Shown here in pieces: positions 8,990 to 64,000 of a DNA stretch of 64,000 nt (positions are counted from its first letter, which is position 1; the number at the start of each line of letters is the position of its first letter). Both the position numbers and the translations under genes were made by a program. This DNA comes from Lama guanicoe. Lineage: Eukaryota. Location: positions 937,063-1,001,062 of the forward strand of contig MU053557.1 in assembly GCA_013239625.1 (NCBI GenBank), in the 5' to 3' direction. Below the pieces are notes generated by a model that ran no database searches, was not told the origin of the DNA, and saw only the letters and a program-made list of their open reading frames with translations.

Positions 8990-9586
<597 letters not shown>

Positions 9587-28632: not shown

Positions 28633-28685
<53 letters not shown>

Positions 28686-28687
28686 GC
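28596..28687. repeat. Compound (GT)n/(GC)n microsatellite
   Basis: 92 bp of uninterrupted purine-pyrimidine alternation. Confidence 0.95.
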
Positions 28688-42170: not shown

Positions 42171-44219
42171 AAAGAAAAGGGAAAGTAACCTTGGAAACTT
42201 TCTTCCCCTCTAATTCAGGTTCATCCCCAGTGAGGAGTGAAGATCCTGCTGGGAGAATTTTTCACAAAGAGAATGAATGGTGGTGTAATCGTTACATAAC
42301 CATCAATTACTAAAGTATAAAACGGATGTGCCTTTGCTTCCAAACTCTTCCTCCTCCCCTGCTGTTAGGAAGCAGTGCTGTTCTTTCAGGCATCAGGGCT
42401 CCAAGCATCTGTGTCATCTTTAATTTCTTCCTCTTCTTTGCCTTATTTTCCATTCAGTGGGTAAGTGCTTTCTCTTGAGTCAATTTAGAGACATGTTTCT
42501 TATATATCTTTTTACTCTTCCTTGAACTGAACTTCAAGTTCAGATCATATAATCTTTTTTCTTCAAAAAAAGAGTATTCAACTTCTTTTTAATTATAAGA
42601 ATAATACTTTTTTTGGGTAACAAATTCAAATTTTAAAAAGTGAATAAAGTACAAATTGAAAGTTTCCTCTTCTCTAATCTCACTGCCCAACTGGCAACAA
42701 TGGTTATTTCCTGATTTTACTATGCTCATAAAATAAATTGCTATATACCTTTATCTAGCTATAATACCTTTATCTACATATAATGTATTCATATCAACAT
42801 ATAAACCATCATCACAAATTAGCTAATATTCATTGAAGAATTACTATGAGCCAGCAGTGTGTTACACGCTTTACATAAATTTTCTTATGTAACCCTTGTT
42901 GTCCTATCTGGTAACTGATTGAACCAAAATGCTAACCTTGCCTGGTGAACTCCAGAACCTCATATTTTACTCTTGGCCTATTCTTTGTTGCTTTTTAAAA
43001 ATAAAATTGCTACGACATTATACATGCTGTTTTGCAACTTTCTTCTTTTTACTTAACATATTAGAGACACCTGTACTTATATTGAAATACCTCATTCTTT
43101 TTAATAAGCCGTATAGTATTCTGTTGCACAGAAGAAATAATTTGTTCAGTGAAAATACTCCCTAAGAACAGACACTTCAGTGATTCCTTTTTTTCTCTTT
43201 ATTATAAAACATACAATAAGTATTTTTGTACACTTGAATTGGTTTCTGTTAGATACGTTACTTAGGAGTAGAATTATAATAAGTTCTTAACTTGTTTTCC
43301 CATCTCTACTCTCTGCCCTCTCAAATCTGTCTTTCTCATTTCACCCAGATTTATCACCATGGAGCATGGTTCTGATCCCACCACTTCCTGGTTCTGGGTT
43401 CCCTTGGACTTTTGGATAAAGTCTAAAACCTTGCCTCTTCCGACTTTCAAAATTTCAGATATTATCACTGTGAACTTATTTCACCCATTTCTCTTTCACT
43501 TACTCAGTGCTCCAGGATCAGCTGTTCCCAGCACTGCCTTAGCCTGGAATCTCTTCCTTCTCCTCCCCCTTTTCTAGTATGATTCTTACTTACCTTCAAG
43601 CTCGATTACTAATTCCTTCACAATGATCCCCAGCTAGAAATTATAGTGCGATAGTCCCAATTTCCCAAATATCTAATCCATATCCCTCTCTGTTTGCACA
43701 GTCATCAGGTTCTAACTTGTATTAGAGCTGATCTCTAATACATGCTTCATCATTCTCTGAAAATTCTGACAAGGGAAAGGAAAGAAAAGAAGATAAAAGA
43801 AAAAAGAAAATCCTTGTGGGCATGTTCTATGTCTAATACATCCTATATCCCTAGTGGCAGCTAGTATTGGCTTGCTAATTAAGTAGTTATTTCAAAAATT
43901 AATTTGTTTTTAAATATAAAGACCATTTTACTATTTCCTTGAGGTTCTTACTTCTTGCTGCTTTATTAGGGGTTTTTCTAGAAACTTCTAAAAAATGAAA
44001 TATTTGGATGATGATATCACATGCACCTTTCACACAGGGTTTTATAGAAAGCTGTCCTGTCTACAGTTTGTGGTATTAGGCAGCCTTATCCATGATGCTT
44101 TCCTCACATCCCAGGAGATTGGGCTGGAGACGGATGAACATGTGATCTGTGGACAAGCAAATTTGATGCTAGTCAGTAAAATTTGATTGATTTTATGAAA
44201 TAAAAGATGAGGTAAGCCA

Positions 44220-45067
44220 TATGGTATTTTTCTTTCTCTTTCTGGCTTACTTCTCTTAGTATGACAATCTCCAGGTCCATCCATGTTGCTGCAAATGGCA
44301 TTATTTTATTCTTCTTTATGGCTGAGTAGTATTCCACACACATATATGTAATTCTATACATACCACATCTTCTTTATCCAATCATCTGTTGATGGACATT
44401 TAGGTTGCTTCCACATCTTGGCTATTGTAAATAGTGCTGCTATGAACATTGGAGTGTTCGTATCTTTTCGAATTAGTTCCCTCTGGATATAGCCCAGGAA
44501 TGAGATTGCTGGTATGTCTAAGGTAAGTCTATTTTTAGTTTTTAAAGGAACCTCCATACTGTTTTCCCTAACGGCTGCACCAAACTACATTCCCACCAAC
44601 AGTATAGGAGGGTTCCCTTTTCTCCACACTCTCTTTATTGTTTGTGGACTTTTGAATGATGACCATTCTGACTGGTGTGAGGTGATACCTCATTGTAGTT
44701 TTGATTTGCATTTTTCTGATAATTATATGATATCACTTACATGTGGAATCTAAAACAAATGACACAAATGAACTTATGTACAAAACAGAAACAGACTCAC
44801 AGACATAGAAAACAAACTTAGGGTTACCAGGGGAGGATGGGGGGTGGAGGGATAAATTGAGAGTTCAGGATTTGCAGATACTAACTACTATATAAAAAAT
44901 AGATAAACAATAAAGTCCTACTGTATAGCACAGGGAAATATATTCAATATCTTATAATAGCTTATAAGGAAGAGGAATATAAAAAGGAATATATATAAAT
45001 GTATATTTATAACTGAATTACTCTGCTATATAGTAGAAATTAACACACCATTATAAACCAACTATAT
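44220..45067. mobile_element. 5'-inverted (twin-primed) L1 insertion
   Basis: 44220-~44722 is the minus-strand ORF2 C-terminus (MPFAATWMDLEIVILREVSQKEKEKYHM) and ~44723-45067 is plus-strand 3' UTR. A 17-bp TSD with 2 mismatches lies at 44203-44219 and 45068-45084. Confidence 0.9.
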
Positions 45068-46899
45068 AAAGATAAGGCAAGCCAATCAGATTCTCCTTCA
45101 GAATTTGGAAAATGAGAACGATGAGGCTGAGATGTTGTATGGAAGGCATAAATATATGTGGGAGTGCATCAGGGCCCAGAGTTACAAGAACACATGAAAG
45201 ACGTACAGTGCAGTCATAGATTAAAGCATGGTCCCTAAAGGCAGCTGGTGTTACAGGCAGTCAGATTCACCCTTGAAATCCCTTACAAAGGTGCCACTTT
45301 GGACCAGCATACTGTTTCTTGGTAAGCTCAACATAACATGAGTTTTCTATAGTTTTGGAACAGATTATTGCTTCTTCAGTAGAGCACCAGATGAAGCAGT
45401 TGGCTTGCCATATTTTACTGAAAATATGTGTCTCTAAATACTAGATTTACACTTGGTGCCGTGAGATGATCATGGTACAGGAGGCACCTGGAAACTGAAC
45501 GTGACAAAGAGAACAGCAGTTTGAGGACACTCTTGCTCACTTCTGTGTGTGTGTGTGTGTGTGGGAAGCACTGAGAGTTAATTATGCATAAGATAAATCC
45601 CCTTACAATTTGGCTCCAGGGTGGAGAACAGAGGAAGAATCCACTGGAGGGAGAAGATGAAGCATTATGCAAAGAGAAGGAGAGTTACCATGAGGTAGAA
45701 GCTGGGAAGCCCCAGACAAGGAGGCAGAAGGAGGCAGCGCTTCAAGCTGGCTTGGATTTGGAGCCGCCCGTTCTTCTGCTCCAGTCTGTGCCTATCCTTG
45801 CAGTAAACCCCCCCTCCATCGTGATAACTGATAATAACCTTTGCTCATTACAACTGAAATGACACACGCTAGTCAGTGCAATGGTCAAGACACTTCTTGA
45901 TTTCTTCTGAGGTTTGTGTTGTGTCCATGAAAATGCTTCTGAGTGCTAAGTGGGAAAACATCTATGGAAAATATTCTCTACTGTATGCTTTGCAGAGAAA
46001 TTATATATTGGCATTTCTGGAGCTAGAATATTAGCAAAGAGATCAGAAGGCAACACAAATAAAGAACAGACAGTTAGAATTTGGACAAAGTCGTGTCATC
46101 TGCCCTTTTTTTTGTACATAGACTATCTAGTGTGTTTTACAGGCAATTGAAATCACCTTAAAGGTAGCTCAGATCAATTTCAGATTTTCAGCCATAGGTA
46201 AATCACATTTTGTGTCCCTTCTTGCACATCATAACTGAACAAATTTCAGTGTGAAATAAAATGCTTTTATTATTTCTTCCCATGGAAAGCAGATGCATGA
46301 TAGTCGGCTTTGAATAAGTTCTGTTCCCTCCTCTTTGCGAGAAGCCTATACAGAGAACATTCTGGGATTTAATCAGCAAACAGTGGTGGAGAATTAGCTT
46401 AGAAAAATATCCCTCTCTAACACATCTGCTCTTCAGACAGACACTGTGTACTGCAAGGAAACATCAGACCTCGGAAGAGAAAGCAGGAAAGCTGCCAGGA
46501 AAAGGCTGGCAAATCTGGACTGCCTTTTGCAACATCTGTTGGGAGTCGACAAACTGCCCAGTGATGTGCAGCCTGGATTATACTGATCAACTTTAGTGCC
46601 AGCTCCTGACCACAGGGAAATTGGTTTCCAGGTTTACTGGGCCGCTGCCGAGAACACAGAAAATTCTTGGAGCAGAAGAAGACAAAGAGTTTTGGATGTG
46701 CTTGGGAATACAAAAGATCTTTGTGGAAACCTTAGCTTTCTTTTCCCCCTCCATGGAGAACGATGGTCTTGTGATCTGTGCAGAAACTGTTTTTCTTCAT
46801 TTGCAAAAAGCTTGGATTGGAACATATATACACACTCACATTTCTACTGAGAACTCCAATTAGCACATGCTGCTTCATTTTCGAGGAATTAAAAAAAAG

Positions 46900-47200
46900 A
46901 GATGCCAACTCTCTGAGGTCCTTTACAGTGGAAACATGTCGTCAACCATTATAGCCTCTTTTGTTGCACTATCTCTTTCCTCCAAACCAATAACTTCTGT
47001 TTCTCGTGAATGCACTCGTCCGCTCTTGCCGAAAATGCAAGCCAACCCGTCTCTGCTCTCCGCTGATCAGAGTCATCATGCTGGCTTATCGTCTGCCTTC
47101 GGACAGATTCCACTGATGATTCTGGCGAGGTTATTTTTATTTACGAAACCAGAATCCAAAAGTGTCTCTAGAACATTCCCAGATGGGGTTTGACCAACGA
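46900..47200 (-). mobile_element. Possible hAT/Charlie transposase relic
   Basis: Minus-strand fragments RWS..GNVLETLL, QKLLVWRK and DMFPL occur in the order expected for Charlie-type transposases. They are frameshifted and very degenerate. Confidence 0.3.
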
Positions 47201-47549
47201 ATGAGGAAGCCAGATTTACCAAGAGGCTAATCTGAATTTCTTTACATGATGTCTAAAGAGAAAACTAGTCAGAAGACAGAGAAGAAACACGTAAGGAAAT
47301 GAAACTTCTGTTAGCAGGTCACAATAGTAAAATCTCACAGTGTGCCAACTCTGTGGGGTTTTGTGTAGGTTTTCTCATTAGTCCTCAGGAGTTGCCTTTA
47401 AGGAAAGAATTGCTATGTTTATCTTCTTGGGTCAGAGGCATCTTACAATCTGCCTAAAATTAATTTACTTGGTAAGTATACAAGTTTACATGACTGTAAG
47501 CTTCAAGATTTTCTAATATATTCTACTGCCTCCGCAGAGTGTTGTTAAT

Positions 47550-47685
47550 GATTCACTCAATAAAGAGTTTTTGAGTGCCCGTTCTGTGCCAGGAGTTTGT
47601 CCAGCACGGGGGACACAGCAGTGAAAAAGAAAAGGAAAATAAAGAAAACAAAAGTCCGCCCTCGTGGAACTTACATTCCATTGTC
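47550..47685 (-). mobile_element. L2 3' fragment
   Basis: ttgagtgcccgttctgtgccagg...gccctcgtggaacttacattc. Confidence 0.7.
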
Positions 47686-47789
47686 AAAGTCAGAAAGACC
47701 CTGAGAGGGAATCTCATTTAATCTAACCTAATGCAGGCAGGGGACTGAAATACAAAACTTCCCCTCAACTCTGAAGTCACATTAACCGC

Positions 47790-48000
47790 GTAGTTGGAGC
47801 AAAGGCTCCGAATCTGGATTTGAATCAGGGTCCTATCACATCTGGGTGGCAGTCTTGTTTCCTCCTTCTGTAAAAATGGGGTTAATAATGATGTACTTCC
47901 TCTATAGGACATTTTTTAAAGACGGGAGGAGCTAATGCACATCGACTGCCTAGTATAGCCCCTCACGCAGAGCAAAAGCGCAGTAAAAGATTGCAATGAT
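47790..48000 (+). mobile_element. MIR SINE
   Basis: gtttcctccttctgtaaaaatggggttaataat. Confidence 0.7.
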
Positions 48001-49299
48001 TGATGATGATGGCGGTGATGGTGAGAGATTCTAGACCAGTATTACAACAATAAAGAGGGCGACACTTTAACTCAGAGGAGAAGACGACTCAAGGCAGAGC
48101 AGACAGTGCCAACTAATCTGAAATGTTTTCAAGCCTGGTGACCACAACTGCATGAGCTCTTTTTTTTTTCTTTCTTTCTTTTTTTTTTTTTTTTTTTTTG
48201 GCATCATCTTTACAAGTCCTTGGCCCATGATGTGCCTTCTGGAGAGGCACAGGGACAGCGTGGAGATCCGGCGCTGGTTTGGGGAGCAGCAGGGCTCCAG
48301 GATTGACAGTCATGGTGTCAGAGGGAGCTTCCTTTCCACCCATGCACTTCCCTCTACCTCCTCCCAAAGGGGTGGATCACACTCATCAGAAATCCCAACA
48401 GCCCATCAGTGGGACACCTGGTGGGAAAGAAGACAGTAACATTAACGCTTGAGTTTGACTTGTGATCTAGAGAAGTTTAGGAATTTTGGCTCAGCAGATG
48501 AATGTAAACCTGCGTGTTCAGATTGTTTTGCTAGGTAACCCTGTTTACATTTATACAATTTCTTTGAGAATTCCCAAACTTCAAAAGCCTGAATTGGCTT
48601 AACACGCCTCGCTGGTGTAACTCATAGATCCTGCCCGTTGTCATTTAGAGCGACACAATCTGGCAGTTTCCACACTTGCTAATTAACAAATCCCGAGGTG
48701 CTAGAGATGGGAGGTTTTATGTCATTTACGTTCCAGAGGTGAGTTATGGCCCTAGGACAAATTCTCCTTCATCGCAGTCTGCTAACATCTTTCTTCAAGG
48801 ACACAGGGAGGCCTCAAGTCAAGCACTTAACCTCCCTGTGTCTGAGTCTCCTCAACTATGAAATGGAAATACATCTTGTGAGACTGAATTAAAATAATGG
48901 CTCTGAACCCTCCAGTTGGAATAAATGTCTCTCAATTCTTACAGAGATCTGATTGCACAATTCACTTCCTCTCTGTGGTACTTTCTTCCTTTATTTTTTT
49001 TTTTTTGTCTATCTCATCTTCTCAGTGACATCAGTTTAAGACTGTCTATTCCATCTCTAAACAAACCCTCCTTCCACAACTCTTTGCATGATCTTTAATT
49101 CTGTTTTTTTTTTCTTTAATACAAATTTGAGTAACTTCTCTGTGCCAGGCTCTGTATCGCTGTAAATTAGCTGTGAAACTTGTTCTCCTGTGGTTCTGTC
49201 TCCTTTTACATTTATTAGCTGCTTCAGGGTCAGAGTCAAGGAGGGGAGAAGGCTAATTAAAGGGAAGCGTGTGATTTTTTACACTGCTGGTATTTTTTT

Positions 49300-50400
49300 T
49301 AGTATATAACATTTTGATTTTAAAATAGTTAATTTAGATTTAAAGAAAGTTGCAAAGATGATACAGAACTTTCTCATATACCCCTCGGCCAGTTTTCCCT
49401 AATGTTAACATCTTATATTTCCACAGAGAACATTTATACACAACTAAGAAACCAATTTATGGTTGCATTGCTCTTAACCAAACTCCACACTTGATTCACG
49501 TTTCACATGTTTTCCCATAAGGTTTTCTGTTCTAGGTTCCCATGAAGACACCACATTCATTTAGTTGTCCTGTATCCTTAGTCTCCTCTGGTCTGTGACA
49601 GTTCCTTAGTCACTCTTTGTTATTAACGACCTTCACAGTTACAAAGAGCACTGGTCAGGTATTTTGTACAGTGTCCCTCAGTTTGGGTTTGTCAGATATT
49701 TTGCTCTTGATTAGACTGAAGTTGTGAGTTTTTTAGAAGACCTCAGAGATGAAGTGCCCTTCTCATTAAGCCTTCTCAGGGTGTGGGCTATGAACATGAC
49801 TTATTCCTAGAGATGTCCATCTTGATTCCGTGGCCAAGGTAACGTTCACCAGGTTCTGTGTTGTAAAGTTAGTTCCCCCTCGATCCTGTAGAATATTCTT
49901 CAAAAGCATGTCACTAAAGCCAGGCACATTCAAAGAGGTGGTGATAAGCTTCACTTCCTGGTATATATGCATAAATAATTTGGAACTCATCTGTAAGGAA
50001 GATTTGTCCTTCTCCACTGTTATCTGCCCATCTGTCTATCCATCCATTTATTCATTTGTATCAGCATGGACTCAAGTGTGTTTATTTTATACGTTGTTTT
50101 GTAATGGAATACTGTGTCCATTATTTTGCTGCTCAATTGGCCATTGACACCTTTTTCAAATTGGCTCTCGTATCCCGCTGATACGCCCCCATCCTTTTGG
50201 TTTTTGAGTACTTCTTTATTTTCACACACTAAGAGATGCTAAGAGATGCTGTAGGCTCATCTTGTGTTCTCCCTGCCCTGGTCTGAGAATTAGCCATTTC
50301 TCAGGAGCCCTGACTTACTTTACTGGAGAATAGTATTAGAGGCCAGTCTCAGTGTGCTTATTGCTCCTGGGGCTTCACAGATTCTAGGCCTCTTAGTAGC
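49300..50400 (-). mobile_element. Old L1 (L1MC/MD-like) 3' UTR
   Basis: tttagatttaaagaaagttgcaaagat...ttccctaatgttaacatctta...cactggtcaggtattttgta is typical of reverse L1M 3' ends. Confidence 0.75.
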
Positions 50401-51309
50401 TGGCATGGTTTTAATCCAACATTGAATCCTCTCTGCACTGGAAGCTTAGTCATGGACTTTTCTTTTGGAACATGCTTGTGGGTTCCTCAGAGGTCCCCCA
50501 CTGGAGTCATCCAATAATGGTTACTTTATTGGCAATGGGACCATTGATGACTTTTCAACATGACATGATGATGAGAGCTGTCTTCTAGTAACATTACTTG
50601 CATAGCGATTTGAGGGACGACATGCAGTAGAAAAGAGAGTGGAATGGGGAGGTTAGTTAGGAAATTGATGTACTAATCTAAGGATTATGAAAAAAAAAGG
50701 AAGTCTGGACAAGGATGGTTACTGTGCAAATCAAAAGAGGGGGTCAACTATAAGAAACATCTATTAAGGGTATTGAAGACCTGGGTGGTCCCAGCTACTT
50801 CCTGCCATGGTTGTGTGCTTATGGATTTTCTGACACCCAGTTCTGCTGTTACTGCAGTACATGAGTTGGGACAGCTTCTAATCTCAGTCAGACCCTCAGG
50901 CCATTTACAATGGGAGATTTGCAGAGTGGTTCCTATCATCTGTGGCCCTTGGGGCTCAAATCTCAAGACTGGATTGCCCACAGCTTCTGCATTTTGGTAC
51001 CATTTTGCTGTTTCTCTCTGGGCAGTGGGTGGATCCAGGCAGGATGTATGACTGGACACCCAATGATGGTTTCAAATTGCTCTTGTAATACTCATCCTTC
51101 ATTTGCCCATTTCCAGTATCTTCTCAGAGGAAGCATGTAGAAAAGTACATGGAAATGTACCCAACAAGAGCTTATGAGTCTTAGATAGCTCATCAGATAG
51201 GAATTTGTAGTTCTCTAGCCCAAACGTGCATTTTTTCCCCTGATGGCTACAGAGAGCTTTAAATGGCCATGTAAGAAGTTCACATTTGCTCCTCTAGGAC
51301 CTCTCTTGC

Positions 51310-51620
51310 TACCCAAAATGCAGCCCACAGAGGAGCAGTGGAAGCATCACCTGGGAGATTGCTGGAAGTGTGCAGAGTATCAGGTACCATGTACTAAATA
51401 AGAGTCTATATATTAATAGGATCCTTGGATTGTCCATGTGCACGTTGAAGTTTGAGATGCAGTGGTCTAGACCACTGGTCCACTAACGTGGCTGTACATG
51501 AGGATCTTTGGAGAGCTTTACAAAATACTGATGCTTAGGTTTACCCCTACAGATTGTGATGTAATTGGTACTGACTGTGGCCTGAGTATTTGGATTTTTA
51601 AAACTTCCCAGTGCTTGAGG
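51310..51620. mobile_element. Two adjacent MER5-type hAT elements
   Basis: agcatcacctgggag...aagtttgagatgcagtggtctag, then ctggtcc...aaaatactgatgcttagg...ggatttttaaaacttcccc. Confidence 0.6.
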
Positions 51621-51779
51621 ATTGCCATGGTGGACATCACCACTCCAGAGGGAAGACTGAAAGAACCTAAAGCAGTACCTTAAGGAAGAAAAACCTAAGA
51701 ATAGTACTCTATATTCTTCTGATATTACCCAAAAACCTGGCCTGTGGCACACACTATCAGTAACACTAGGCATGGGTAT

Positions 51780-52438
51780 TGTTTTTCGATCAAACAATGT
51801 GGAAAAGCCATCAAACTGCTGACCAGAAGGGTCCTAAAAATACCACATTTAGAGCCACAAGTAGCTACACTCAGATCTGGGATGGGTTCATAAGGCTTAC
51901 CCTAGGTTATGGACAATTGAGTATCCAGCACTCCTACATTGGGAACAGAAAAATCACTCTAAACAGAATCAACCCAACTGCACCAGGGATATGGGATGAT
52001 GGATATCACTGAAACAGTGTGGTCATTAAAGGACAGTGACTGGTTTGGCACTGACTAGTTGTGCCACCCAGGTATTTATTGGGTCACCCTGAATGGAACC
52101 TAGTGGTGGTTTGGCACAAATCTTTGGCCCTGGCTTCTACCTGGGTGGTCAAAGAGGTGTGCCCTAGGTTTCCCTGGGCACAGGGGAGAATCCACCCACC
52201 ATAACAAAAATTGCTAATCTTCCTCTCTTCAAGGCTAGGTGGGCACCTTCTGTTTTCCACAGGTATGAGTGATTTGTCCGCTGTCTTTGTCCCCTCCATT
52301 GGCCTGCAGGTCATTATAGCACACATAGAATCTTTTACTGAATTCATCCAGCAAGCCTTAAATGATAGCCAGCAAACCTATCTTTACTGAACACTGAAAT
52401 GTCTCTAATAAGAAAAGCTGTCCTTCAAAACTGGACAG
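51780..52438 (+). pseudogene. env: Endogenous retrovirus env relic (SU C-terminus, fusion peptide, heptad repeat)
   Basis: Hand translation gives PGIYWVTLNGT*WWFGTNLWPWLLPGWSKRCALGFP...ANLPLFKARWAPSVF...AVFVPSIGLQVIIAHIESFTEFIQQALNDSQQ/SLLNTEMSLIRKAVLQNW, with stops and frameshifts. The 5' boundary is approximate. Confidence 0.85.
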
Positions 52439-53228
52439 TCTGACACGAGAAGGGGGTTTCTAACACCAATAAACACCAGCCAGGTATCCTACAATTCGTC
52501 TCAGTTCTGTTCCCATCTGCCCAGAGATAGCATGATTCTCCAGTTTAAGGGTTTAGTCTTGTAAGATGGCTACTCTCCCATCCCCCATTCCTACGTCAGA
52601 CTTTGGACGCCAATCAGAAGCCCAGCCTTGCGCTTGCAGCTTACAGATTGGAGGTTAGGAACCTCCTCCTTGGACTTCAGCTGCGATTTGCAGGTGCAGG
52701 TTGTTACCGTGCTTCTGGCCACTGGTTGTAGATCAGAGTTTCCCCAGACCCCCTCCTTAGGTTTGATTAATTTGCTAGAGCAGCTCACAGAACTCAGAAA
52801 AACATTTTACTTTTGAGGTTTACCAGTTTGTTATAAAAGGTTGTAACCCAGAAACAGTAAGATGGAAGAGATGCATAGGGCAAGGTATGTGGGAAAGGCA
52901 CGGAGCTTCCATGCCCTCTCCAGGTCTATCACTCTCCCCAAATCTCCACCTGTTCACTAACCTCTCCAAACCGCCACCCCCGCCCCCTTTTTTGGCTTTT
53001 ATGGAGTTTTCATTGCACAGGCATGATTGATGAAATCATCAGCTGTTCGTGACTGAATCAACTTCCAACCCTCCCCGCCTTTTTTCCTCCCTGGAGGTTA
53101 AGGTGCAGGGGGAATGAAACCTGCCCCCCCCATCACTTAGCAAATGCCAAGAATTTTGGGAGCTTGGTGCCAGAAAGTGGAATGAAGTCTAAATATATAT
53201 ATTTCTTATTATAAATCACAATATCATA
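52439..53228 (-). mobile_element. MER21-like LTR inserted into env
   Basis: The minus strand starts tatgatattgtgatttataataagaaatatatat, the recalled MER21 5' end. Flanks gacag (52434-52438) and gacgg (53229-53233) resemble a 5-bp TSD. Confidence 0.8.
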
Positions 53229-53590
53229 GACGGCCTTAGACATTATTGCTGCCTTACAAGGACGCACCTGTGCCATTATCCAAACAGCGTGATGCGCTTT
53301 TATACTTGATGCGTCTGCTAATGTATCATCTTTATTAAAACCACACGAGAACCCAAGTAACTACCTTAAGTGATCATACTCCCAGCCTAGGGTACTTAGC
53401 AAGTAAATAGTTCAAATCATTGGGCTCATAGTGGAAAATGTTACTTATTTTGGGAATTATATTTTAATCTGTGTTTTCTCTTACATTTGCCTATAATACT
53501 GCTGTGGAATCTGCCTGCAATGCAGTCACATAGCTCTCAAACGAGCCACCTCCACGCTACTAAAACCGCTCGCTGACCACTCAGGGTACG
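53229..53590 (+). pseudogene. env: ERV env relic, TM part (ISD end, CX6CC, membrane anchor)
   Basis: TALDIIAALQGRTCAIIQTA*CAFILDASANVS, where CX6CC has one Cys changed to TGA. A hydrophobic stretch follows (WKMLLILGIIF/LICVFSYICL*YCCGICLQC). Confidence 0.85.
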
Positions 53591-53608
53591 TTGTGGAACT
53601 GGGGGGCG

Positions 53609-54330
53609 TGTAAGATTATAAAAGTCAGTCGTCATAAGGGATAAAATGTTGGGGCGTTCCTAGAGAGGCTGTGACCGCTGGCTGACCCTTGAGCTTAACC
53701 CCAGCGAGCGGAGGCTCCTCAGCCAATCCCTGTCCTCAGGCTGCAAGCTCCGCCCACCGCCCCCACAGGCCGAGCCGTTTTGCAGGGAGGCAGCCTCGCG
53801 AGAGCTGCGGAACTGGAACCACCTGGAGGGAATCCTCTTTCCAGTCACGCGTCTCCGTATAAACTTGTGAGGCGCCGGCCGCGACGGGCGCGTGGGGAGG
53901 TCGGCGTCTTGCGGTGCCCAGGACAAGCCGCGGGAGTAAGTCCCCTTGCTACTTAGACTGTCGCCTCCCACGGTGGAGGCGCCTGCTCTTTTCTAGGTCT
54001 CTCGTTGCTGTTTGGGGGGGGTCCTGTTTGGGAACCAGCAACGCCTGAGGGTGTTATTTAGCTGGTTTGGGGGTGCGGCTTAGTACTTCTCTTTTGAAGC
54101 TTCTCCGGTAATTTTAATACGCTGCCAGCATTGAGAAACTTTGCTTTTAGGCTTCTGGAGGCCACACTCGGACACGGTTTTTCCAGAAATGAAAAAACGC
54201 CGTGGTGGAGTTGAGGCGTTTGCCGAGAGGAGCGGAGGCCGAGGCGCAGGCCTTCTGGACGGCTGCTCTCCCTGGGGAATGCGCTTCCTGCCCCGTCTTC
54301 AAGATGGATAGCACTGTATTGTGTAAGTAC
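53609..54330 (+). promoter_or_regulatory. CpG-island-like promoter, probably the 3' LTR (~53609-54043) of the env-bearing ERV plus flank
   Basis: About 30 CpGs in ~440 bp (hand count). CCAAT 53723-53727, GC box 53750-53755, CTCGCGAG palindrome 53795-53802, CTCTTTCC ~53835-53842, TATAAA 53858-53863 and donor GGA|GTAAGT at 53936. Confidence 0.7.
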
Positions 54331-56267
54331 TACATTTTATTATTCCTCATACAAGATTTTTATTACTTGTTTGACTCCTGGGTAACCGAATTCTGTGATA
54401 ATTTGCAAATTTGACAAGCGCCGAATTATGAATGCATTTCACGCGTCTTGTTGGAAGCCGGGTATTAAGCACTGTATTGTGCAATTGCCTCAAGGCTGCA
54501 CTTTACAAGTTTTAAGAACCCCCCAGAAAGGTTCTTCCCTCTGCTCCAGAGCACTCCCAGTGAATCTTCGCAAACTTGACTTCTCCCGTTGCCCGCAGTG
54601 ACTTGGCGGCCAAACAGGCTTTTCTCAAGTTTTTGCAATCAGCCCGTATTCTCCTTTTAAAACACTAGTTTCAGCTCTTATTTTTAGAGTCTTCTAATAC
54701 ACCCTGATAAATGTTCTTCTCCTAAGGGCTTGTCAGGAACAAGGGTGATTGATAAACTTTTCCAAAGGGAAGAGAAAAATGTTCTCTCTAATATCTGCCG
54801 TTGTGACAGATTACATAAATAATGTTCTAAGGCTAATCGGTACTAAATGAATTTTGTATTTTAAATGTTTTCTGCAGCCATCCAGGTATGAATCACGTTT
54901 CTTTATCAAAATCATTATGAGGGCCGCCTTGACTTGTAAAATCTAGCAAATAAATATGGGAAAGCAAATGGTGCTAGGTGCCTGCGTTTGTATTATTAGG
55001 GCATTGTTTATTCTGCCAGCTCATAAATCATCACTCTATGTGAAAAGACTTGCCACGGAAACATAAAATCGTTGTCCTTGGTCATCACCAGACGACTGGG
55101 GCTTCGGCTGTTCACTCCTTGTTGGTGTTGGATTCTTTTTTTTGTTTCCTGTATTTTGGGACAGAATTCTTTGTGGCAGAGGTTTCTGAAATGTGTCAGG
55201 CAGGGCAATTTGAGGTGCTACATGAGCAAATATTTTGATCTTAGCAATTGCAGTATTTATCTATCTTTGACAATTAAGCCTTCTGATGGAAAATGCTTCC
55301 TACTTTGCTTGCCTCCAGAGGCATGGAAGCAGAAAAAGCTGAAAAGGAACAAAACAGGGAGTAAAAAAAGAGGAGCTAAAGGAAGGGAAAAGAGGAGGGG
55401 TCCAATGCTGAGAAAGGTATTGGACCCTGGGGTCCTACTAGAGATAGAAGGATTTATAGAGGTAGTAACATGTGTGTAAAAGCTTCTGACACTTTTCCAT
55501 TGGGCGGGTCTGTCTCCTGTGGCCACTGAAACTGCAGTTAGAGAACTCTGCTCCTGATCCAGTGCACCCATCCTTAAGAGCAGAGGGAGAGGGGGCTTTG
55601 GAAAGGTGAGTGGAGAGAAAGATGGGCAACAACAAAGACATGATCACTCTTGGGAAACCAGGCAGTGAGACTGGGGCTCAAAAGATTTTTAGAATCGTTG
55701 ACAGTTCAAGGCTACACAACTCTGGGGATGTGTGTGCTTGAGGCATATGACAGGGGAACCATGTTATAATAGAGAACTCTCTTCGTTTATTAATGAACAT
55801 GAGTATAATTCCTAGCTGTATGTTTAAGTCACCCTGTGACCTTGACACAAACCCTTTCCCTTCTGAGCCTCAATATCCTCTTCTGTAAAATGCAAATTTT
55901 CAAAATGTTTTCATTGCCATTTTTAAGAACCACTAAGTCCAGTATGATTGTTGTTGCTGTAAGTATTTTTTTTTGTTATCTTATATTCATGGCGAGATTT
56001 CACATTTACTTTTAGGTAATTTTATTTAAGTTAAAATGATTCTACTTGAAGAAAAATAAGTCAGTAATTATAGTAAGAGCTGACGCTCTGATGGCATTTG
56101 TCATTCTGTCACGCTTTACACGTATTTGATTGTCATGTGATTATACTTTGCATTAAAATGCTTTGCATTAAAATCCTATTCTAGTCCCACTTTATAGACC
56201 CTGAGATGTAGCAGTTGAATATCATGGTCAATGTCAGACAGTTCATGAGTGGAGGAAGGTCCAAAAC

Positions 56268-56807
56268 TGTATCTGTCCAACGAGTCCAAACTCGTTCTGC
56301 TCGCCGCACAATAGGCCAGTAAATTGGAAGACGAAGTGTTGGGGCAAGGAATAGTGACTTTATTTGGAAAACTGGCAGACCGAGAAGATGGCAAACTAAT
56401 GTTGTGGAGAACTGTCTTTCTCAAATCAGAATTCAGGCTCCTTTTATACTAAAAAGGGGCGGGGTGTGTTGGTTGTTGCAAACTTCTTGGTGTAGAAATT
56501 CTTTGTTCTTGGAATCTCTTGTTCTTGTAGCTGTCCACGTGGGTCAGGTCATGGTGCCCCTGTAAAACCGCTAACAAAACTTTTGTATTCTGCAACTTGT
56601 TATCTTTATATAAATGCAGAAGTGTTAATACCCTTAAAGGTCAGAACCCTGAGAATAGGCTCTCCTGTGTATTTCAGGCTAAAGGCAATGTTCTTGTACA
56701 AAAGATGCAGAGCCAGCAAGACTAAGCCTAGAAAACAGGGCGCAGAGTTAAATTAAAGCCAAAGGAACATATTTAATATGGAATCAGATTTGTTCTCTTC
56801 TCTTACA
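56268..56807 (-). mobile_element. ERV1 solo LTR (MER41-like) inserted in a MIR
   Basis: The minus strand starts TGTAAG...TCTGATTCCATATT and has TATAAAA (~56443-56449), a GC box and AATAAA (~56359-56364). MIR halves lie on both sides. Confidence 0.7.
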
Positions 56808-57224
56808 GACCTGTATGCTCTGGCTCCACAGTCAACAATGTTACTCTACTCCATCATTCTACTAGTCTACCTCTGAAGTATCAATACAAAAAGAATTATT
56901 TGGCAAAAACAGGGAGGTTGCTACTCATGAGACACTGAGTAAGTGTCTAAATTTCACTTGGTATCTCATTAAATGAAGAAACAGGTGTTAAGCACTGTAT
57001 TGTGTAATTGCTTCAACTCTGCACTTCACCAGTTTTAAGAACTCACCCCTGAAAGGTGTTTCTTAAAGCTTTGTCTAGTATGTAAAATGAATGCTCAAAA
57101 ATGCTGTCATAGATGAACAAATGAATGAGTTTATATTCTATATCATAATCTATGGTATCTTTCTAAAACTCAAATTATATCCTGTCACTCCCCTGGTTAA
57201 ACTTTTTTGGTGGTTTCCCATTAA

Positions 57225-57390
57225 GTTTGCCAGAGCAGGGGCACCCAGTTAAACTTGGATTTCAGATAAACAGTTTTTTGGGGGGCGGGGTATAATATAA
57301 TCTGGGCAATATTTGAGACACATTTATCCTAAAAATTATTCACTGCTTATTAAATTCAAATTTAGCTGGGCCTCTTGTATTTTTCTGTCT
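57225..57390. mobile_element. MER53-like palindromic hAT MITE within L2
   Basis: Inverted arms cacccagttaaacttggatttcagataaaca ... aaattcaaatttagctgggc. Confidence 0.7.
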
Positions 57391-57716
57391 ACCGTACTCT
57401 TCATTGCCCTCAATGTAAAGTCCACGTTTTAAAGTTAGCTTTCGAGTTTGCAGTCTGTTCACAGCTTACTTTCAACCTCTTCTTGCACCATTCCCAGTGT
57501 AGACTTCATGTTTTAGCTGCATCTGGATATTTTCAGTTCCCTGAACATATACTACCCTAATATGACCTTTTCATATACTGTTCTCTCTTCAGACTGTTCT
57601 TAACCTGAGTCTTTCGTCATTCAGATTAAATGATACTCAGGAATTCCTAAGTCTAGGTTAGGGGCCACCATGCTGCTCTCCAGCCAGAGTTCCCATTACG
57701 CTGTGTAGTAACTGCC

Positions 57717-57830
57717 TTTTCTTTCATTGAAGTATAGTCAGTTACAATTTGTCAACTTCTGGTGTACAGCATAATGTTTCAGTCATACATACACATCATA
57801 TGCATACATATATTCACTTTTTCTTTTTAA
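57717..57830 (-). mobile_element. Truncated L1 3' end
   Basis: ttgaagtatagtcagttacaat...tggtgtacagcataatg. Confidence 0.8.
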
Positions 57831-59305
57831 CTTGTTTATCTTTCTCTAGATTTTAAGCTCTTGGGGGGCAGAGGCTGTCTACATCTTGCTTACTGTTGCA
57901 TTCTTGTTGTATGCGCACTACATGGTATGATCTAAAGCAATGTTTGTGGAAGAAAATGACCTTAAGAGCTTAATTATGGAGCAAACTCAGATCTTTGATT
58001 ATTTTGTGGATTCAGAAAACAAGTGGTTGACAATATATACACAATAAAATGAGTGTTGATGCATGCCTCTATTCTTCATGTTTTGCTCGTTTAAGATCTA
58101 TTTTGCAAATGAATGCATTTAACATTAGAAACAAAGCTTTAATTTTTTTTCAGATGGAATAGATATAGTGATCTCCTTTCAGAAGCACCATCTATTTTGT
58201 TCAAATGAATGATGCATAAAATTATATCTTTAATCATCCCAATAAGTCATTACAACTTCATAGGTTATTTATCAGTTCCCACAGAATTTAACATCAAAAT
58301 GTCATTGACCCAGTTAGTTAATTCTATGTCTGAGTATTAGCAACTTTTCTATAGTCTGAATGTATTAGACAGTAGTAAGCCCCACAAAGGAACCAGGCTG
58401 TATGGGACATAGTGCTCAGCTATTTAAGGCATCCTGGGGACATTCTTGGCAAATATCTTTCCAGAACTTAGATTGGTCAGTGGATAATCAATAATGTAGC
58501 CATTTTCTAGAGAGGGCTATCTTAGCAACCAGTTAAGATTTTTTTTTTCATGCTAATATGGATCCAGCACCTTTATCACGTTGCGTATGGAGAACTTACC
58601 AAAAAGCTCTGCTTTATCAAGATCATTTCATCCAAATCAAATAGATTTTTACCATGGCATGTAAGCAGACTGCTAACAACAACAAAAAAATAGATAAGAA
58701 CATGAGATTTTGAGTTGAAGATTGCTCTTAAAACTTTCTGATTCTGTTACTCTGAGCCTCATTCATCTTTTTTTTTTTTTTTTTGTAAAATGGGGCCACT
58801 GATACCTACTTGTGGAAGAATATTGCTTTAGGTTTCTAACTTTTTCTAATGACTTTGGCTGCAGTTAAAAAAAAAATGTTGCTTATCTGTTTGTCTGCCT
58901 ACCTGTGTGATTTTTCTCTTCTCCTTGGATATATACATGCAAACACACACACAGAAGTGGAAATTTACACAACCCTTCTGCTACCCTGGATCAAATACCA
59001 CCTGAAAGCAACCAGATGTGCGCTGAACATAAGGGAAGTCAGCCTCCTTTGTCTTAGTTTGACAACAGCTGTACTTTACCTTTTTAGGATGTATAAATAC
59101 CAGTAAGACTACTGAAACAAGTCGTATCAGTTCTAATTGTTTTCCCAAGTGGTGCCAAATGAACTTGACTGTTCTTTGTGATACTTGTTGCATTTTGATT
59201 CCATCGGCCTTGGGAGGATGACAATGAAGCTGATAGAGGTATAATTACTGTTTCTCTACATATCCACATATCTCTGCAATAAAATTCAATGTATGTCTTT
59301 TTCTT

Positions 59306-59563
59306 TTTTCTTTTTTTTGTTTCTATGGAACTTAGTACTGTGGCTAGATTTTTTTTTTTTGAGGTCTGTCTTGTTTTCTTTATTTGCATTCTTTTTTTTT
59401 TTAATGAAGTATAGTCAGTTTACAATGTTGTGTCTATTTCTGATGGACAGCATAACGTTTCGGTCACATACATACATGTATTTGTTTTCATATTCTTTTT
59501 CATTATAGGTTACTACAAGCTATTGAATATAGTTCCCTGTGCTATACAGTAGAAACTTGTTTC
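59306..59563 (-). mobile_element. Truncated L1 with 3'-transduced sequence
   Basis: L1 3' end at 59403-59563 with three poly(T) tracts. A perfect 13-bp TSD atgtctttttctt lies at 59293-59305 and 59564-59576. Confidence 0.8.
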
Positions 59564-60221
59564 ATGTCTTTTTCTTGCAGCCTTTAAAAACTGCTGAAAA
59601 TACAAGGGTCTGAACTTACATGTGTGCCTAATAATGTTGGTAATGATTTGCTTTTAATAGTGAAAGTTTGGAAATAGCATAACTGTCTAAAAATAGTGGA
59701 AGTTCATGGCTGTTCTTCACAAGTCTTCACTGAGGAGCACATCAGGAATGTGCTCTAATACAGCTGTGTTTTGAGCAGCACCTGGTTTTACCTGGCTGCC
59801 CTGAGGACAAGGTTGATCAATATCTGGAAGCATACCTGAAGCCCATTCATGGCATGCTGATTGGAAGGTTCTGAATCATGGTATACACATAAGTTGAAAT
59901 ATTTGAAGCTGGCAGAAATGCTGACGTCAGTCTAAATGTATTGGCATTAAAAGATGTCTGTAGCAGATTGTATAGGAAGGGGAAAAAGGTTAGATTTGAG
60001 TACATATAGTTTATACAACTTACTCATAAATGCATGCCTAAAGAAATGTCTGGAGGGAGAGTCTCCAATATTTTATTGCTAAGTAATAAGATTCTGGGTG
60101 ATATTTTAAATCTTTTATGTAAAGATTCGTTGGAGTTTAAATGTGTTCACTGTTATGAGATGTAATTTTCCCCAAATGATAATCCTATATATATTAAATC
60201 AGGAGTGAGATTTCACGTTCT

Positions 60222-60730
60222 ATTGTTGACATTGAATTCGTCGTCCTCCATCCTGCTTCTTTCCTATTGGATGACAGCCTTACACTTTGGGGGATCGGGT
60301 TCAGTTTCCTATGGGTGGACCAGGATGAGTTCAAGCCATTGCTTTTACCAGTGGTTGATTCAGAACACTGTCTAAGGTAATGAGATCATGTCTGCTTTTA
60401 GGCCACAGATGATTTGAGAATTGGGAATCTGACTCAGTTTAGAATATGAAGATGGGAGTACACTTTCCTGATGTTTTCTGAAAGTTTCCTTAGAATAGAG
60501 ACTTACATAGGTGATCATCCCTTCTTTCTCTGGATCTTTTTTTCATTGTTGATGGGCCGTTTTGCCCGAACATTGAACCAGAGTTAAGAGAATTGAAAAG
60601 AAATGGAGTCAGAGTCCCTAAATTAAGCACTCTGGAATCCTATTTTACTCACTTTCCCAAGCAAATTCTCTTTCTGTAGCTTGATAAACAGTTTGATTTC
60701 CTTGTAGTTGGAAACATTTTCATAGAGTGA
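60222..60730 (+). mobile_element. Old MaLR LTR (MLT1-like)
   Basis: Degenerate MLT1-type motifs (ccagtggttgattcagaa, tgactcagttt, aaattctcttt...cttgtagttg). Confidence 0.4.
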
Positions 60731-60924
60731 TCTACTTGGTTAGAGGCGAGAGCAGAGCTACTCTACTTCCATGCAGACATGTCAGAGGGGTTCTTTATCA
60801 GGTGTGGTGAGGTACAGATAAAGATAGCGGCCATGTCTGTCTATCTAGTGTACATATACACACACGTGCAACGTATATATGCTATTTTAATGTGTACGTT
60901 ACAAAACTAAACCAGTTTTGTGAA

Positions 60925-61215
60925 TTGTCTTAGTGCTGTGGAAATAGACATACCATATATGTGATGTTAAAATTTACAGTTGTCTCATTTCAAACTAAAC
61001 ATAAACGTGAAATTCGTCTTGATAATATATTACTTCACTCAATGTATCTAAAATAGCTTTTCAACATTTAACCAATACAACATTATTAATGACCTACTTT
61101 TATTTTTTGTATTAAATCTTCGAAATCTGATATGTGTTTTGTGCTATTTTTGAGCACATCTCCATTTCGGGAGCTGCATTTGACTGCCTAGTAGCCACAG
61201 GTGTCTAGCATTATT
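60925..61215. mobile_element. MER33-like hAT element
   Basis: gtgaaatt...aatatattacttcactcaat...aaatcttcgaaatctg...agcacatctc...tagccacagg. Confidence 0.6.
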
Positions 61216-61393
61216 AAACGTCATGAATCTGTCTTCATGCTGGTGTTTTCCAAGAGCTAGCAGCAATGGCAAATTCGGGAGTTGATTCTATGCATTCTTA
61301 GACCCCACGCCAGACCTACTGAATCAGAATCTGCATTTTTGCAGGATTCTCTGGCGATTTGATTGTACATTAAAATCTGAGTAGTTATTAGTT

Positions 61394-61808
61394 TTACTCT
61401 TTTTTAATTGAAGTACAGTCAGTTACAATGTGTCAATTTCTGGTGTACAGCACAATGTCCCAGTCATGCATATACATACATATATTTCTTTTCATAGTCT
61501 TTTTCATTAAAGGTTATTACAAGTTACTGAATATAGTTCCCTGTGCTATATAGAAGGAATTTTTTTTTTTGAATCTGTTTTTGTATATAGTGGCTAACAT
61601 TTGCAAATCCCAGACTCCCAGGTTTATCCCTTCCCACTCCCTTTCCCCCCGGTAACCATAGATTGTTTACTATTTGAGTCTGTTTGTTTTGTAGATGAGT
61701 TCATTAGTGTCCTTTTTTTCTTTTTTGAGATTTCACAAGAGTGATGTCATACGGTGTTTTTCTTTCTCTTTCTGGCTTACTTCACTTAGAATGATGATCT
61801 CTAGGTCC
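61394..61808 (-). mobile_element. 5'-truncated L1 (relatively young)
   Basis: Reverse L1 3' end with a perfect 11-bp TSD agttattagtt at 61383-61393 and 61809-61819. Confidence 0.9.
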
Positions 61809-64000
61809 AGTTATTAGTTGTATTATTGTTAAGGTTGGTGTTACTCTGATATTGGCAGAAATGAACTGTTCATACCTACCCCCTCAGCGACTCTAAGCTG
61901 TGTGGCAGGGCTAGGGCAAGCGGGAGGTACAGACGAGATAAAGTGCTGACCAGTGCCTGAACGTAGGCCTGGGTGGAGCTAGTTCAGGAGTGGTAGGGAC
62001 TCTCCAGACTGTAGTCCTGATGCTAGTCCTGAGATGGATCCACAGGCCTCATAATAATGAAAAGATTGATTGTAAATCCCATGTGAATGGCACAGCTGTA
62101 ATGTGTTGATGTCTTCATAATCAACAGATTTATTTATACAGTCTTGTTTTGCATGAGAAATGTCTGATATGGGATTGTTGGTAAAATATTTACAGATCTT
62201 CAAATTATCTTTTGAAAGGAGGGGCTGGAAATTGAATTGAACAATATAAGGTCTTCATTAGGCTCTTGTCACATGCCAGGTTTCTGTGTATTTGCTTTGA
62301 TTTGATTCCGGTTGGCTTTGTGGTTTTTTTTCCCCCCCAGTGATATACGATGTCAATTTATCAGGTAAAAATTCCTCATTCAGTGGAAGGGGGAGGCCAG
62401 TGAATTCTCAGGAAAAGCAGAGCTGGTTTTGGATTTCACCGTGGGCGTAAACCTGGGTACATTTGTCTCCTCTATAGTTATTTTTCTATTCATCCCAAAC
62501 CTTATCTGAATAGATAATAAACCACTTCATGAGCAGATGTGCCACTTATTCATCTAGTTCCGTAACGATAATGAAGAAAATTTAATCTGAAGTGTCTGTG
62601 GAAGATGAACTAAAGCCAGATTGGTATGAATAATAAAGGCTCTGAAATGTTGGGCCCCACGTGAGACACCAGTCATGACGTACTTGACGGTGACAGAGTC
62701 CAGTGGTGCACAGGAACCACCACCTCCTGGTGCTGGATCCACAAAGAGCTGCTGTTTCTGCACATGTAAACATTCAAAGTTGCTTAGAGCATAAAGAAGC
62801 ATAAAGGATACATTTTCTTGCAGCTGGAAGTAACATCTGACATTGCAAAAAGCTGCAAATGTGTTGGAGGGATTGCTTTATTCAAATAAATGTAAGAAAC
62901 TCAAAAACATGTGCATCTTAACATTTTTGTTAAAAAAAAAACAAATTGAGACCAATTTCCCTCTAAACTGTGCAAAATGATCTCTTGGGAGATAATGATT
63001 AGCTTGAAACCTGCTGCACATTTGACCTTAGTTTTATACACGATACATAGCTGCTCTTGACGTAAAGGGACAGGTGGTCTCTGTAGCTAGAAGGCACTTG
63101 AGTGTTCAGTGAACTCCAAACAGGACTTTGTAATATGGATTGTGTTTCTTTCTCATTCCTTATTGAATTCAGTGCATTACACAACCACAACAGCTTATAG
63201 ACTCTAAAAACGTGGGTTTTGTCCAGCATTAGCCACATACCCAACATTTTCAAAACAGTTACCTTTCCTCTGTGCTTTTGTGTCTGTTTGGAAAACGAAT
63301 ATCAGTTCCCCTTGTGGATATATTGGCCTGAATGGCCTTTATAAGTTGTACTTTCTTGGTAGATCCTTGTGGCAATGATAGACACCTAAATAATTCTGTC
63401 ATGTTGAAACAATGGCAAGAAGTATATATTGTGCACAGAAAATCCTGCTTTGACCTTTGTGTGTGGCACCACTTAATAATTCAGTTAACAAACCCCATGA
63501 GAAACAGTTTATAATTATTTCTTAAAAGTCAACATGGTTGTAAAATGGCTTGCCAATATAAGCAGAACAGGCAATTTACAATAACAGGTCCATGCTGTAC
63601 TTAGACTTTTCAGTGAATTTAATACTTTTAAGATAGCCAAACCACTAGCCCCAAGGAAATTATCAACCTGTTTCTTTATAGTACAAACAGAATATGAAGT
63701 TTTGCCTCAGGAAAGATGTCTTATATTCAAATCAGTGATACTTATTGATATTGAGCTTTTCATATGCTACACCACCCACTTTGCTCCCAGCTTTCTTCTC
63801 TCCTGTATCCTGCTTCTGGGAATGGCTCCATTATCCACCAGGCTTTTGCCTCCCATCACTCTCCTTCATTGTTTCACCCTTTACGCCTGGTCTAGCTTAT
63901 CTATACTCTCATGTTACCTTCTGAAATGAGACCGTCTTACGTGTCTCTTGTGAGCTGTTTGAAGGCAGACACTAAGCCCTACCAGTCTCTGTATCTGAAA

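What the first reader, a model, noticed from the sequence alone, without database searches (positions are those of the whole stretch)
53590..54330. Probable exapted ERV LTR promoter: CpG-rich promoter exactly where the 3' LTR of a dead provirus should be
Seen: the env relic ends at ~53590 and is followed by a G-run (53601-53606, polypurine-tract-like) and TGTAAG at 53609. Then come CCAAT, GC box, CGCG palindrome, TATAAA (53858) and a GTAAGT donor (53936). No AATAAA/ATTAAA follows where an LTR R region needs one (cttaga at ~53952 may be its remnant). This segment keeps about 30 CpGs in ~440 bp, against only 2-3 in the 660-bp env part at 51780-52438. Established: old methylated ERVs lose CpGs, and LTR promoters with internal donors give chimeric germline, embryo or placental transcripts. 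Inference: this LTR stayed unmethylated in the germline, lost its poly(A) signal and drives a host transcript.
Basis: partly seen in the sequence, partly recalled or inferred. Interest (0 to 1): 0.75.

Follow-up and report, generated by a model that had tools for sequence, protein, structure and literature searches.

The report
Old retroviral LTR turned CpG island
The end piece of a long-dead virus in this mammal's genome has kept the DNA signature of a region left unmethylated in germ cells and still looks like a promoter, but nothing yet shows that it makes an RNA or serves the host.

Summary
The motifs and CpG counts are real. 53609-54050 holds 32 CpG in 442 bp (o/e 0.77), the only strict CpG island in the 64 kb window. 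The upstream env relic is confirmed (66 relatives; PRIMA4/PABL-like clade). Two corrections. First, the G-run and TGTAAG at 53609 lie in env-tail sequence shared with a relative through 53631; the LTR more probably spans 53647 to about 54043. Second, CpG retention is not confined to the LTR: env 3' of an insertion has o/e 0.68 and the right flank 0.77-0.56, against 0.05 in env 5', without a GC rise. This fits long-term germline hypomethylation with sloping shores, centred on the LTR. The LTR identity rests on position and anatomy; no DNA relative or 5' LTR was found. Transcription, start site and splicing are untested. KCTD16 ends 44 kb upstream on the same strand and no Pfam family hit 10 kb downstream, so a coding host target is not in view. 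Verdict: probable LTR-derived orphan CpG island, a known kind; exaptation unshown.

The parts
8990..9586 (+). Last coding stretch of KCTD16 (context; ends 44 kb upstream of the island)
   Evidence: 98 proteins at E<=0.001 among 191 candidates, top named hits KCTD16 at 83-99% identity
51592..52440 (+). env relic, 5' part (SU end, start of TM), broken by stops and frameshifts; CpG-depleted (2 CpG, o/e 0.05)
   Evidence: 66 relatives at E<=1e-3, best 6.5e-18; tblastn extent; CpG
52441..53228 (-). 788-bp insertion splitting env; MER21-like solo LTR by recall only; CpG at background (o/e 0.28)
   Evidence: relatives' coverage falls to 0 across it; P0220 residues 280 and 283 flank it; a 7-nt stretch recurs at both junctions with 2 mismatches
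53229..53631 (+). env relic, 3' part (TM and tail), includes the G-run 53601-53606 and TGTAAG 53609; CpG kept (o/e 0.68 to 53600, GC 42%)
   Evidence: P0220 283-418 aligns to 53233-53631, E 1.4e-6; 53518-53631 at 54-56% over 39 residues; CpG
53636..53646 (+). Purine tract (10 of 11 purines), probable polypurine tract
   Evidence: sequence; lies just past the end of homology with the relative; inference
53647..54043 (+). Probable 3' LTR, 397 bp, 31 CpG, o/e 0.76, GC 64%
   Evidence: position after env and purine tract; promoter motifs in LTR order; weak terminal inverted repeat; no library match obtained
53723..53727 (+). CCAAT box
53750..53762 (+). Two GC boxes (CCGCCC)
53858..53863 (+). TATAAA; start site expected near 53888 (inference)
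   Evidence: (0.14% of shuffles)
53936..53941 (+). Possible splice donor GTAAGT (6 of 9 consensus positions; would close a first exon of about 48 nt)
   Evidence: GTAAGT occurs 45 times in the window on both strands; use untested
53952..53957 (+). Hexamer two mismatches from a canonical poly(A) signal, where an R region would hold one
   Evidence: one of 2 such hexamers in 53864-54043; identity as a remnant is inference
53417..54366 (.). CpG island by the 500-bp/55%/0.65 rule, the only one in the window; shores reach about 53230 and 55100
54048..54138 (.). Piece of an old interspersed repeat (MER5-like by recall) directly after the LTR; marks the return to host DNA
   Evidence: aligns to 61230-61400 (minus strand, 1 of 500 shuffles) and 51480-51625 (4 and 1 of 500) in targeted tests; not picked out by a whole-window scan
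54323..54328 (+). Second GTAAGT, at the right edge of the island
54949..54954 (+). First AATAAA downstream; possible end of an unspliced RNA of about 1.1 kb
   Evidence: use untested

Best explanation
This is the 3' end of an old, 5'-deleted provirus with a PRIMA4/PABL-clade env. Its GC-rich 3' LTR (53647 to about 54043) seeded a region of about 1.9 kb that has been largely unmethylated in the germ line for a long time, so CpGs were kept and some gained, in the LTR, in the adjoining env tail and in host DNA to the right. The inherited CCAAT, GC and TATA boxes most likely still give some + strand initiation near 53888 in germ cells or early embryos; with no poly(A) signal in the LTR the RNA would run into the flank as a non-coding transcript, spliced at 53936 or 54323 or ended near 54949. 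Shown: env relic, insertion, CpG gradient, motifs. Inferred: LTR limits, hypomethylation. Untested: transcription. No host function is claimed.
For: env confirmed: 66 relatives, 2 of 20 scanned carry TLV_coat, P0220 spans both parts and hits TLV_coat at E 8e-4, below the curated cut-off; Atlas top cluster for relative P0016 is PABLB-Env-like, 0.94; a published PRIMA4/PABL_A env shares the motifs (PMC4724089 file 4). One gene, one age, two CpG fates: o/e 0.05 against 0.68, binomial P 4e-5; identity to relatives 43% and 53%. Flanks o/e 0.77, 0.71, 0.56 at GC 53, 42, 38%. Against the single relative P0220, env 3' has 3 CpG sites where the relative shows the decayed type and 0 the reverse, in 183 bases. 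3 CpG in env 3' sit where the relatives' common residue cannot hold them, so probably gained. In a local duplicate, 54436-54538 has CpG at two places where the copy at 56951-57063 has none. Motif set in 0 of 5000 shuffles. Shores up to 2 kb around sperm-hypomethylated islands are published (PMC4509998).
Against: No DNA relative of the LTR was obtained and no 5' LTR exists in the window (score 15 against 13-16 for shuffles). An ungapped scan of 10,800 start/end pairs did not single out 53647/54043; the terminal repeat is best of 34 TG starts only once the 3' end is fixed by eye. 53609 and 53647 have the same purine count upstream, 11 of 14. The relative's translation gives no significant match inside the LTR (best 11 of 300 shuffles among 18 tests). 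GC skew across the TATA box (-0.15 to +0.14) is within window noise, sd 0.16. Site counts are small. No methylation or read data were seen.
Confidence: 0.5

Rival explanations
1. Passive island: the LTR escapes germline methylation because of its CpG density or bound factors, but is not transcribed to any real extent; the motifs are viral leftovers.
For: A retrotransposed CpG-rich marker stayed unmethylated in male germ cells, methylated in soma, and lowered methylation of a flanking CpG (PMC4509998 section 3). Every motif listed is expected in an LTR from the start. Only 2 of 24 listed runs are on record as RNA holders.
Against: TATA, CCAAT and GC boxes are intact in an element whose env has lost about half its residue identity to relatives, which suggests use; the family's own decay rate at these motifs is unknown.
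Confidence: 0.2
2. One reading: an exapted promoter under selection that drives a spliced host transcript with a function (a long non-coding RNA, or an oocyte transcript that lays methylation downstream).
For: Intact promoter motifs, a donor about 48 nt after the expected start, no poly(A) signal for 1 kb, 5 acceptor-like sites downstream. The stretch is near-identical in 16 DNA runs of 4 coded organisms (13 without possible source runs). Precedents: LTR52 at ZNF791 in pig and cattle oocytes (PMC11734915), MER21C at ZDBF2 (PMC12129452).
Against: KCTD16 is upstream on the same strand. No Pfam family in the three + frames of 54000-64000, no Rfam match in 50000-58000. Internal donors are a family trait of some LTRs, and about 97% of acceptors joined to MLT2A donors were unannotated or non-coding (PMC8559712). 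Conservation in other orders was not tested.
Confidence: 0.15
3. Not an LTR: a host CpG island or enhancer that merely abuts an env relic whose LTR was lost.
For: No library match, no partner LTR, weak terminal repeat; 47 of 78 CpG of the region lie outside the proposed LTR.
Against: GC jumps to 64% in a 397-bp block that starts 16 bp after the end of env homology and a purine tract, and ends where an old repeat piece begins; CCAAT-GC-TATA order fits U3.
Confidence: 0.1
4. GC-biased gene conversion at an old recombination hotspot raised G+C and with it CpG.
For: [quoted passage not shown]
Against: The shores are not GC-rich: env 3' 42% against env 5' 44%, flanks 42% and 38%, yet o/e is 0.56-0.71.
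Confidence: 0.05

Closest known systems
Retrotransposon-derived CpG islands with sloping shores (PMC4509998; passages and part 1 of 4 of Results read)
   Same: An inserted CpG-rich sequence, a graded effect on flanking CpG within about 1-2 kb, germline hypomethylation.
   Different: There methylation was measured on new insertions and methylomes; here only the evolutionary footprint is seen, on an old LTR.
LTR promoters with internal donors: MLT2A (PMC8559712, passages), oocyte LTR-initiated transcripts (PMC6102241, abstract only)
   Same: TATA, start and donor inside one LTR, read-through into host DNA.
   Different: Those have CAGE and spliced reads; they belong to other LTR families; no transcript is shown here.
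LTR52 beside a CpG island promoter at ZNF791 in pig and cattle oocytes (PMC11734915, passages); MER21C first exon at ZDBF2 (PMC12129452, passages)
   Same: Old LTR at a CpG-rich start in a mammal, possible germline or early-embryo transcript.
   Different: Those have a downstream gene or island to act on; no second strict island or coding target lies in this window.
PRIMA4/PABL env clade (PMC4724089: passages, sections 28 and 34, hits in supplement files 1, 2, 4)
   Same: The env relic shares its motifs with the entry labelled prima4a/pabla and with one further entry in file 4 whose label I did not see.
   Different: This env type occurs in several groups, including class III HERVS, so it does not name the LTR family. 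A MER70-like LTR is a recalled lead only.
Orphan CpG islands (PMC12582260, PMC11170920; passages)
   Same: Intergenic island with no known start site; may act as an enhancer.
   Different: LTRs make up only 1.3% of human island sequence (PMC12582260), so an LTR-centred strict island is uncommon though not new.

Membership tests
Retroviral 3' LTR | Follows env in the same orientation | tested here: met
   env homology to 53631, block starts 53647
Retroviral 3' LTR | Polypurine tract directly upstream | tested here: inconclusive
   10 of 11 purines at 53636-53646, but 53609 scores the same over 14 nt
Retroviral 3' LTR | TG...CA ends with short inverted repeats | tested here: inconclusive
   TG start; end reads CG; best of 34 TG starts with the end fixed; not top in the open scan of 10,800 pairs
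Retroviral 3' LTR | U3 promoter (CCAAT, GC, TATA) in order | tested here: met
   53723, 53750/53757, 53858; set in 0 of 5000 shuffles
Retroviral 3' LTR | Poly(A) signal in R | tested here: not met
   none of 14 hexamer variants in 53864-54043; nearest are two mismatches away; decay is inferred
Retroviral 3' LTR | Matching 5' LTR and target-site duplication | tested here: not met
   no match in 1-53600 on either strand; the 5' part of the provirus appears deleted
Retroviral 3' LTR | Match to a described LTR family or dispersed copies | not testable with these tools
   no genome held, no repeat library; collection scans gave no true relative
Gamma-type ERV env, PRIMA4/PABL clade | TM similarity to TLV_coat and clade motifs | tested here: met
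   through relatives; the window's own frames gave no Pfam or PDB hit; no tree built
CpG island | >=500 bp, GC>=55%, o/e>=0.65 in sliding windows | tested here: met
   53417-54366, o/e 0.78; GC 53.7% over the merged span
CpG island | Unmethylated in germ cells | not testable with these tools
   inferred from CpG retention only
Exapted LTR promoter | Transcription start inside the LTR | not tested
   no reads laid; two RNA runs hold part of the words
Exapted LTR promoter | Splicing to host exons or a host gene | tested here: inconclusive
   no Pfam hit on + frames 54000-64000; KCTD16 upstream; exons beyond the window or non-coding exons not excluded
Exapted LTR promoter | Conservation under selection or a phenotype | not testable with these tools
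   no orthologous loci from other orders available

The most novel reading that the evidence does not exclude
An old ERV LTR has become a selected germline or early-embryo promoter in this lineage, firing a spliced non-coding RNA into the region beyond KCTD16 (or acting as a CpG-island enhancer of KCTD16), and the split env beside it is a same-age internal control that records how far and how long germline hypomethylation reached.
Probability: 0.15. Interest if true: 0.55.

Novelty: new member of a known kind. Interest (0 to 1): 0.3.

Why it matters
LTR-derived promoters and islands are well known, so one more candidate changes little by itself. Two points have modest value. Strict CpG islands centred on an old LTR are uncommon (LTRs are 1.3% of human island sequence, PMC12582260). 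And the locus is a neat natural experiment: one env gene, split by an insertion, lost nearly all CpG on the far side and kept them on the near side, which makes the reach and age of germline hypomethylation around an LTR testable by plain alignment across related species. If a conserved transcript or an effect on KCTD16 were shown, it would be a lineage-specific regulatory element beside a GABA-B receptor subunit gene (role of KCTD16 recalled).

Tried and rejected
Own genome: none held. Reads: none laid, so the RNA question stays open; runs X19 and X20 (0.17, 0.08, RNA by guess) are no evidence. Pfam on 12 window frames over env and island: 0 families; PDB with the env 3' frame: 0; word-based search with a 41-residue env piece: 0 of 2 candidates. 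DNA relatives: 0 of 55, 0 of 44, 0 of 29; 1 of 28, L001, is GC-rich DNA with no match to the window and was dropped. gag or pol upstream: no Pfam hit in the three + frames of 42000-51600 (minus frames only 50400-52440). 5' LTR: none. Rfam 50000-58000: 0. GC skew: noise. Strand asymmetry of donors and poly(A) signals (two signals within 520 nt on the antisense side, none for 1.09 kb on the sense side): too few sites to weigh. The pooled count (env 5': 40 loss-type sites of 132, 1 kept-type; env 3': 4 of 54, 5 kept-type) is biased because env 5' has far deeper coverage; not relied on. Bacterial promoter scan: irrelevant. Camel repeat libraries in the supplements of PMC8605555 could not be read and might name the LTR family. 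Three short LTR motifs were absent from file 4 of PMC4724089. Searches for a published element here (listings only) showed none; some searches gave background only. Earlier scan notes: nothing.

Full report
Setting. The window is mammalian DNA, 41% GC, CpG o/e 0.28. The last coding stretch of KCTD16 lies on the + strand at 8990-9586 (98 hits among 191 candidates, top named ones KCTD16), 44 kb before the finding. No genome is held. 16 of 24 listed runs, from 4 coded organisms, hold 0.93-0.98 of the words of 53230-55200; 3 of them may be the source of this DNA. So the stretch is real and shared by close relatives.

Observation. All motifs are at the stated places. 53609-54050 has 32 CpG in 442 bp, o/e 0.77; 51780-52438 has 2, o/e 0.06. 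The best 500-bp window (53801) has 36 CpG, the next best elsewhere 17, and 53417-54366 is the only island under the strict rule. CCAAT, GC box, TATAAA and GTAAGT occur together in 0 of 5000 dinucleotide shuffles, driven by TATAAA (0.14%) and GTAAGT (3%); the motifs were picked after the fact. Lack of a poly(A) hexamer is shared by 99.6% of shuffles.

The env relic. The window's own frames gave no Pfam or PDB hit and a short word search failed. A full HMMER search with one frame of 51782-52387 found 66 proteins at E<=0.001, best 6.5e-18, unnamed fragments in the 20 clusters looked up. Of 20 of the 66 scanned, 2 carry TLV_coat above the cut-off. Relative P0016 is nearest to a PABLB-Env-like cluster (0.94) and to syncytin TM chains (E 0.002). 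An entry labelled prima4a/pabla in supplement file 4 of PMC4724089 shares the motifs; the same paper notes that this env type also occurs in class III HERVS, so env does not name the LTR. Relatives cover 51592-52440 and 53233-53428, with nothing between; P0220 (TLV_coat E 8e-4, under the cut-off) has residue 280 before and 283 after the gap. The gap is a 788-bp insertion, 52441-53228 (MER21-like by recall). No gag, pol or 5' LTR was found upstream, so the provirus is a 3' fragment.

Where the LTR starts. P0220 and its cluster align in one frame through 53518-53631 at 54-56% over 39 residues (0 of 1000 shuffles). This covers the G-run and TGTAAG; the relative's residues there do not require a G-run. 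Homology fades after 53631; a purine tract follows at 53636-53646, then TG at 53647. With the 3' end set at 54043, 53647 is the best of 34 TG starts for a terminal inverted repeat, and 53609 scores poorly. Against this: an open ungapped scan of 10,800 pairs did not favour that pair and both starts have 11 purines in the 14 nt before them; and homology through 53631 would also arise if the relative shared an LTR that began at 53609, though it shows no match further in. Right after 54043 lies a piece similar to two other repeat-like stretches of the window (1, 1 and 4 of 500 shuffles in 3 of 10 targeted tests, regions chosen by eye; not found by a whole-window scan). The block then reads U3 of about 240 nt, TATA, expected start near 53888, donor, a hexamer two mismatches from a poly(A) signal, and a short U5. 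It works like a 3' LTR in layout; membership of a named family could not be tested.

The CpG pattern is regional. o/e runs 0.05 (env 5'), 0.28 (insertion), 0.68 (env 3'), 0.76 (LTR), 0.77, 0.71, 0.56 (flank to 55100), then background; 31 of 78 CpG in 53229-55100 are in the LTR and the median CpG lies at 53946. The two env parts are one gene of one age (43% and 53% identity to relatives) and differ at P 4e-5. The shores are not GC-rich (42%, 42%, 38%), which argues against GC-biased conversion. Against one relative, env 3' shows 3 kept-type and 0 loss-type CpG sites in 183 bases; env 5' shows none of either in 188. 3 CpG in env 3' look gained (one of these sites was classed both ways in two frames). 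A 100-bp local duplicate has two CpG in the near copy and none at those places in the far one. These counts are small but agree. Published work shows graded shores within 2 kb of sperm-hypomethylated islands and that an inserted CpG-rich sequence can stay unmethylated in male germ cells and methylated in soma (PMC4509998). So the footprint supports germline hypomethylation but does not need a host function.

Is it a working, exapted promoter? Untested. No reads were laid. Two runs on record as RNA, from one study labelled reproductive system, hold 0.30 and 0.28 of the words; this could be a transcribed part, DNA carry-over or a diverged relative. The donor matches 6 of 9 positions and GTAAGT occurs 45 times in the window; a second one lies at 54323, the first AATAAA at 54949, and 5 acceptor-like sites lie downstream. 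No Pfam family hit the + frames of 54000-64000 and no Rfam family 50000-58000. KCTD16 cannot be started from here. Donors inside LTRs can be a family trait, and about 97% of acceptors joined to MLT2A donors were unannotated or non-coding (PMC8559712). Real cases exist in related mammals (PMC11734915, PMC12129452; PMC6102241, abstract). Two searches for this locus showed no report in their listings.

Papers seen: PMC12582260, PMC11170920, PMC8559712, PMC11734915, PMC12129452, PMC5753468, PMC8605555 (passages; supplements of the last not readable); PMC4724089 (passages, sections 28 and 34, hits in supplement files); PMC4509998 (passages, first part of Results); PMC6102241 (abstract and outline). 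Family names MER21, MER5, MER70 and the camelid SINE are recalled and come from no match made here.

Verdict. Probable LTR-derived orphan CpG island with an intact-looking promoter, kept by germline hypomethylation and probably giving some non-coding transcription (0.5); passive and silent (0.2); exapted with a function (0.15); not an LTR (0.1); gene conversion (0.05). New member of a known kind; interest 0.3.

Noticed in passing
window 54310-54326, 54436-54538, 56951-57063: A 100-bp stretch is duplicated 2.5 kb apart (85% over 74 nt) and a 17-nt part of it recurs a third time at 54310; origin unexplained, no Rfam match.
   Followed up: partly
window 52434-52440 and 53229-53235: The two junctions of the insertion repeat 7 nt with 2 mismatches, longer than usual for a target-site duplication; the copy nearer the island keeps a CpG that the far copy lacks.
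   Followed up: partly
window about 56235-56810: A second LTR-like stretch (recall only) 2.2 kb right of the island has CpG o/e 0.40, not above background.
   Followed up: partly
window 46800-47300: Stretch with raised CpG (14 in 500 bp, o/e 0.65) at only 42% GC and no obvious repeat; perhaps a conserved regulatory element.
   Followed up: no
window 25985-26335 and 24107-24238: Exact tandem duplicates of 172 nt and 51 nt: recent duplications or assembly artefacts.
   Followed up: no
window 51480-51615: A repeat-like piece runs straight into the env relic at about 51600, which may mark the deletion that removed the 5' part of the provirus.
   Followed up: partly
window 28590-28700: Mixed (TG)n/(CG)n microsatellite that passes the loose CpG-island rule.
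   Followed up: no
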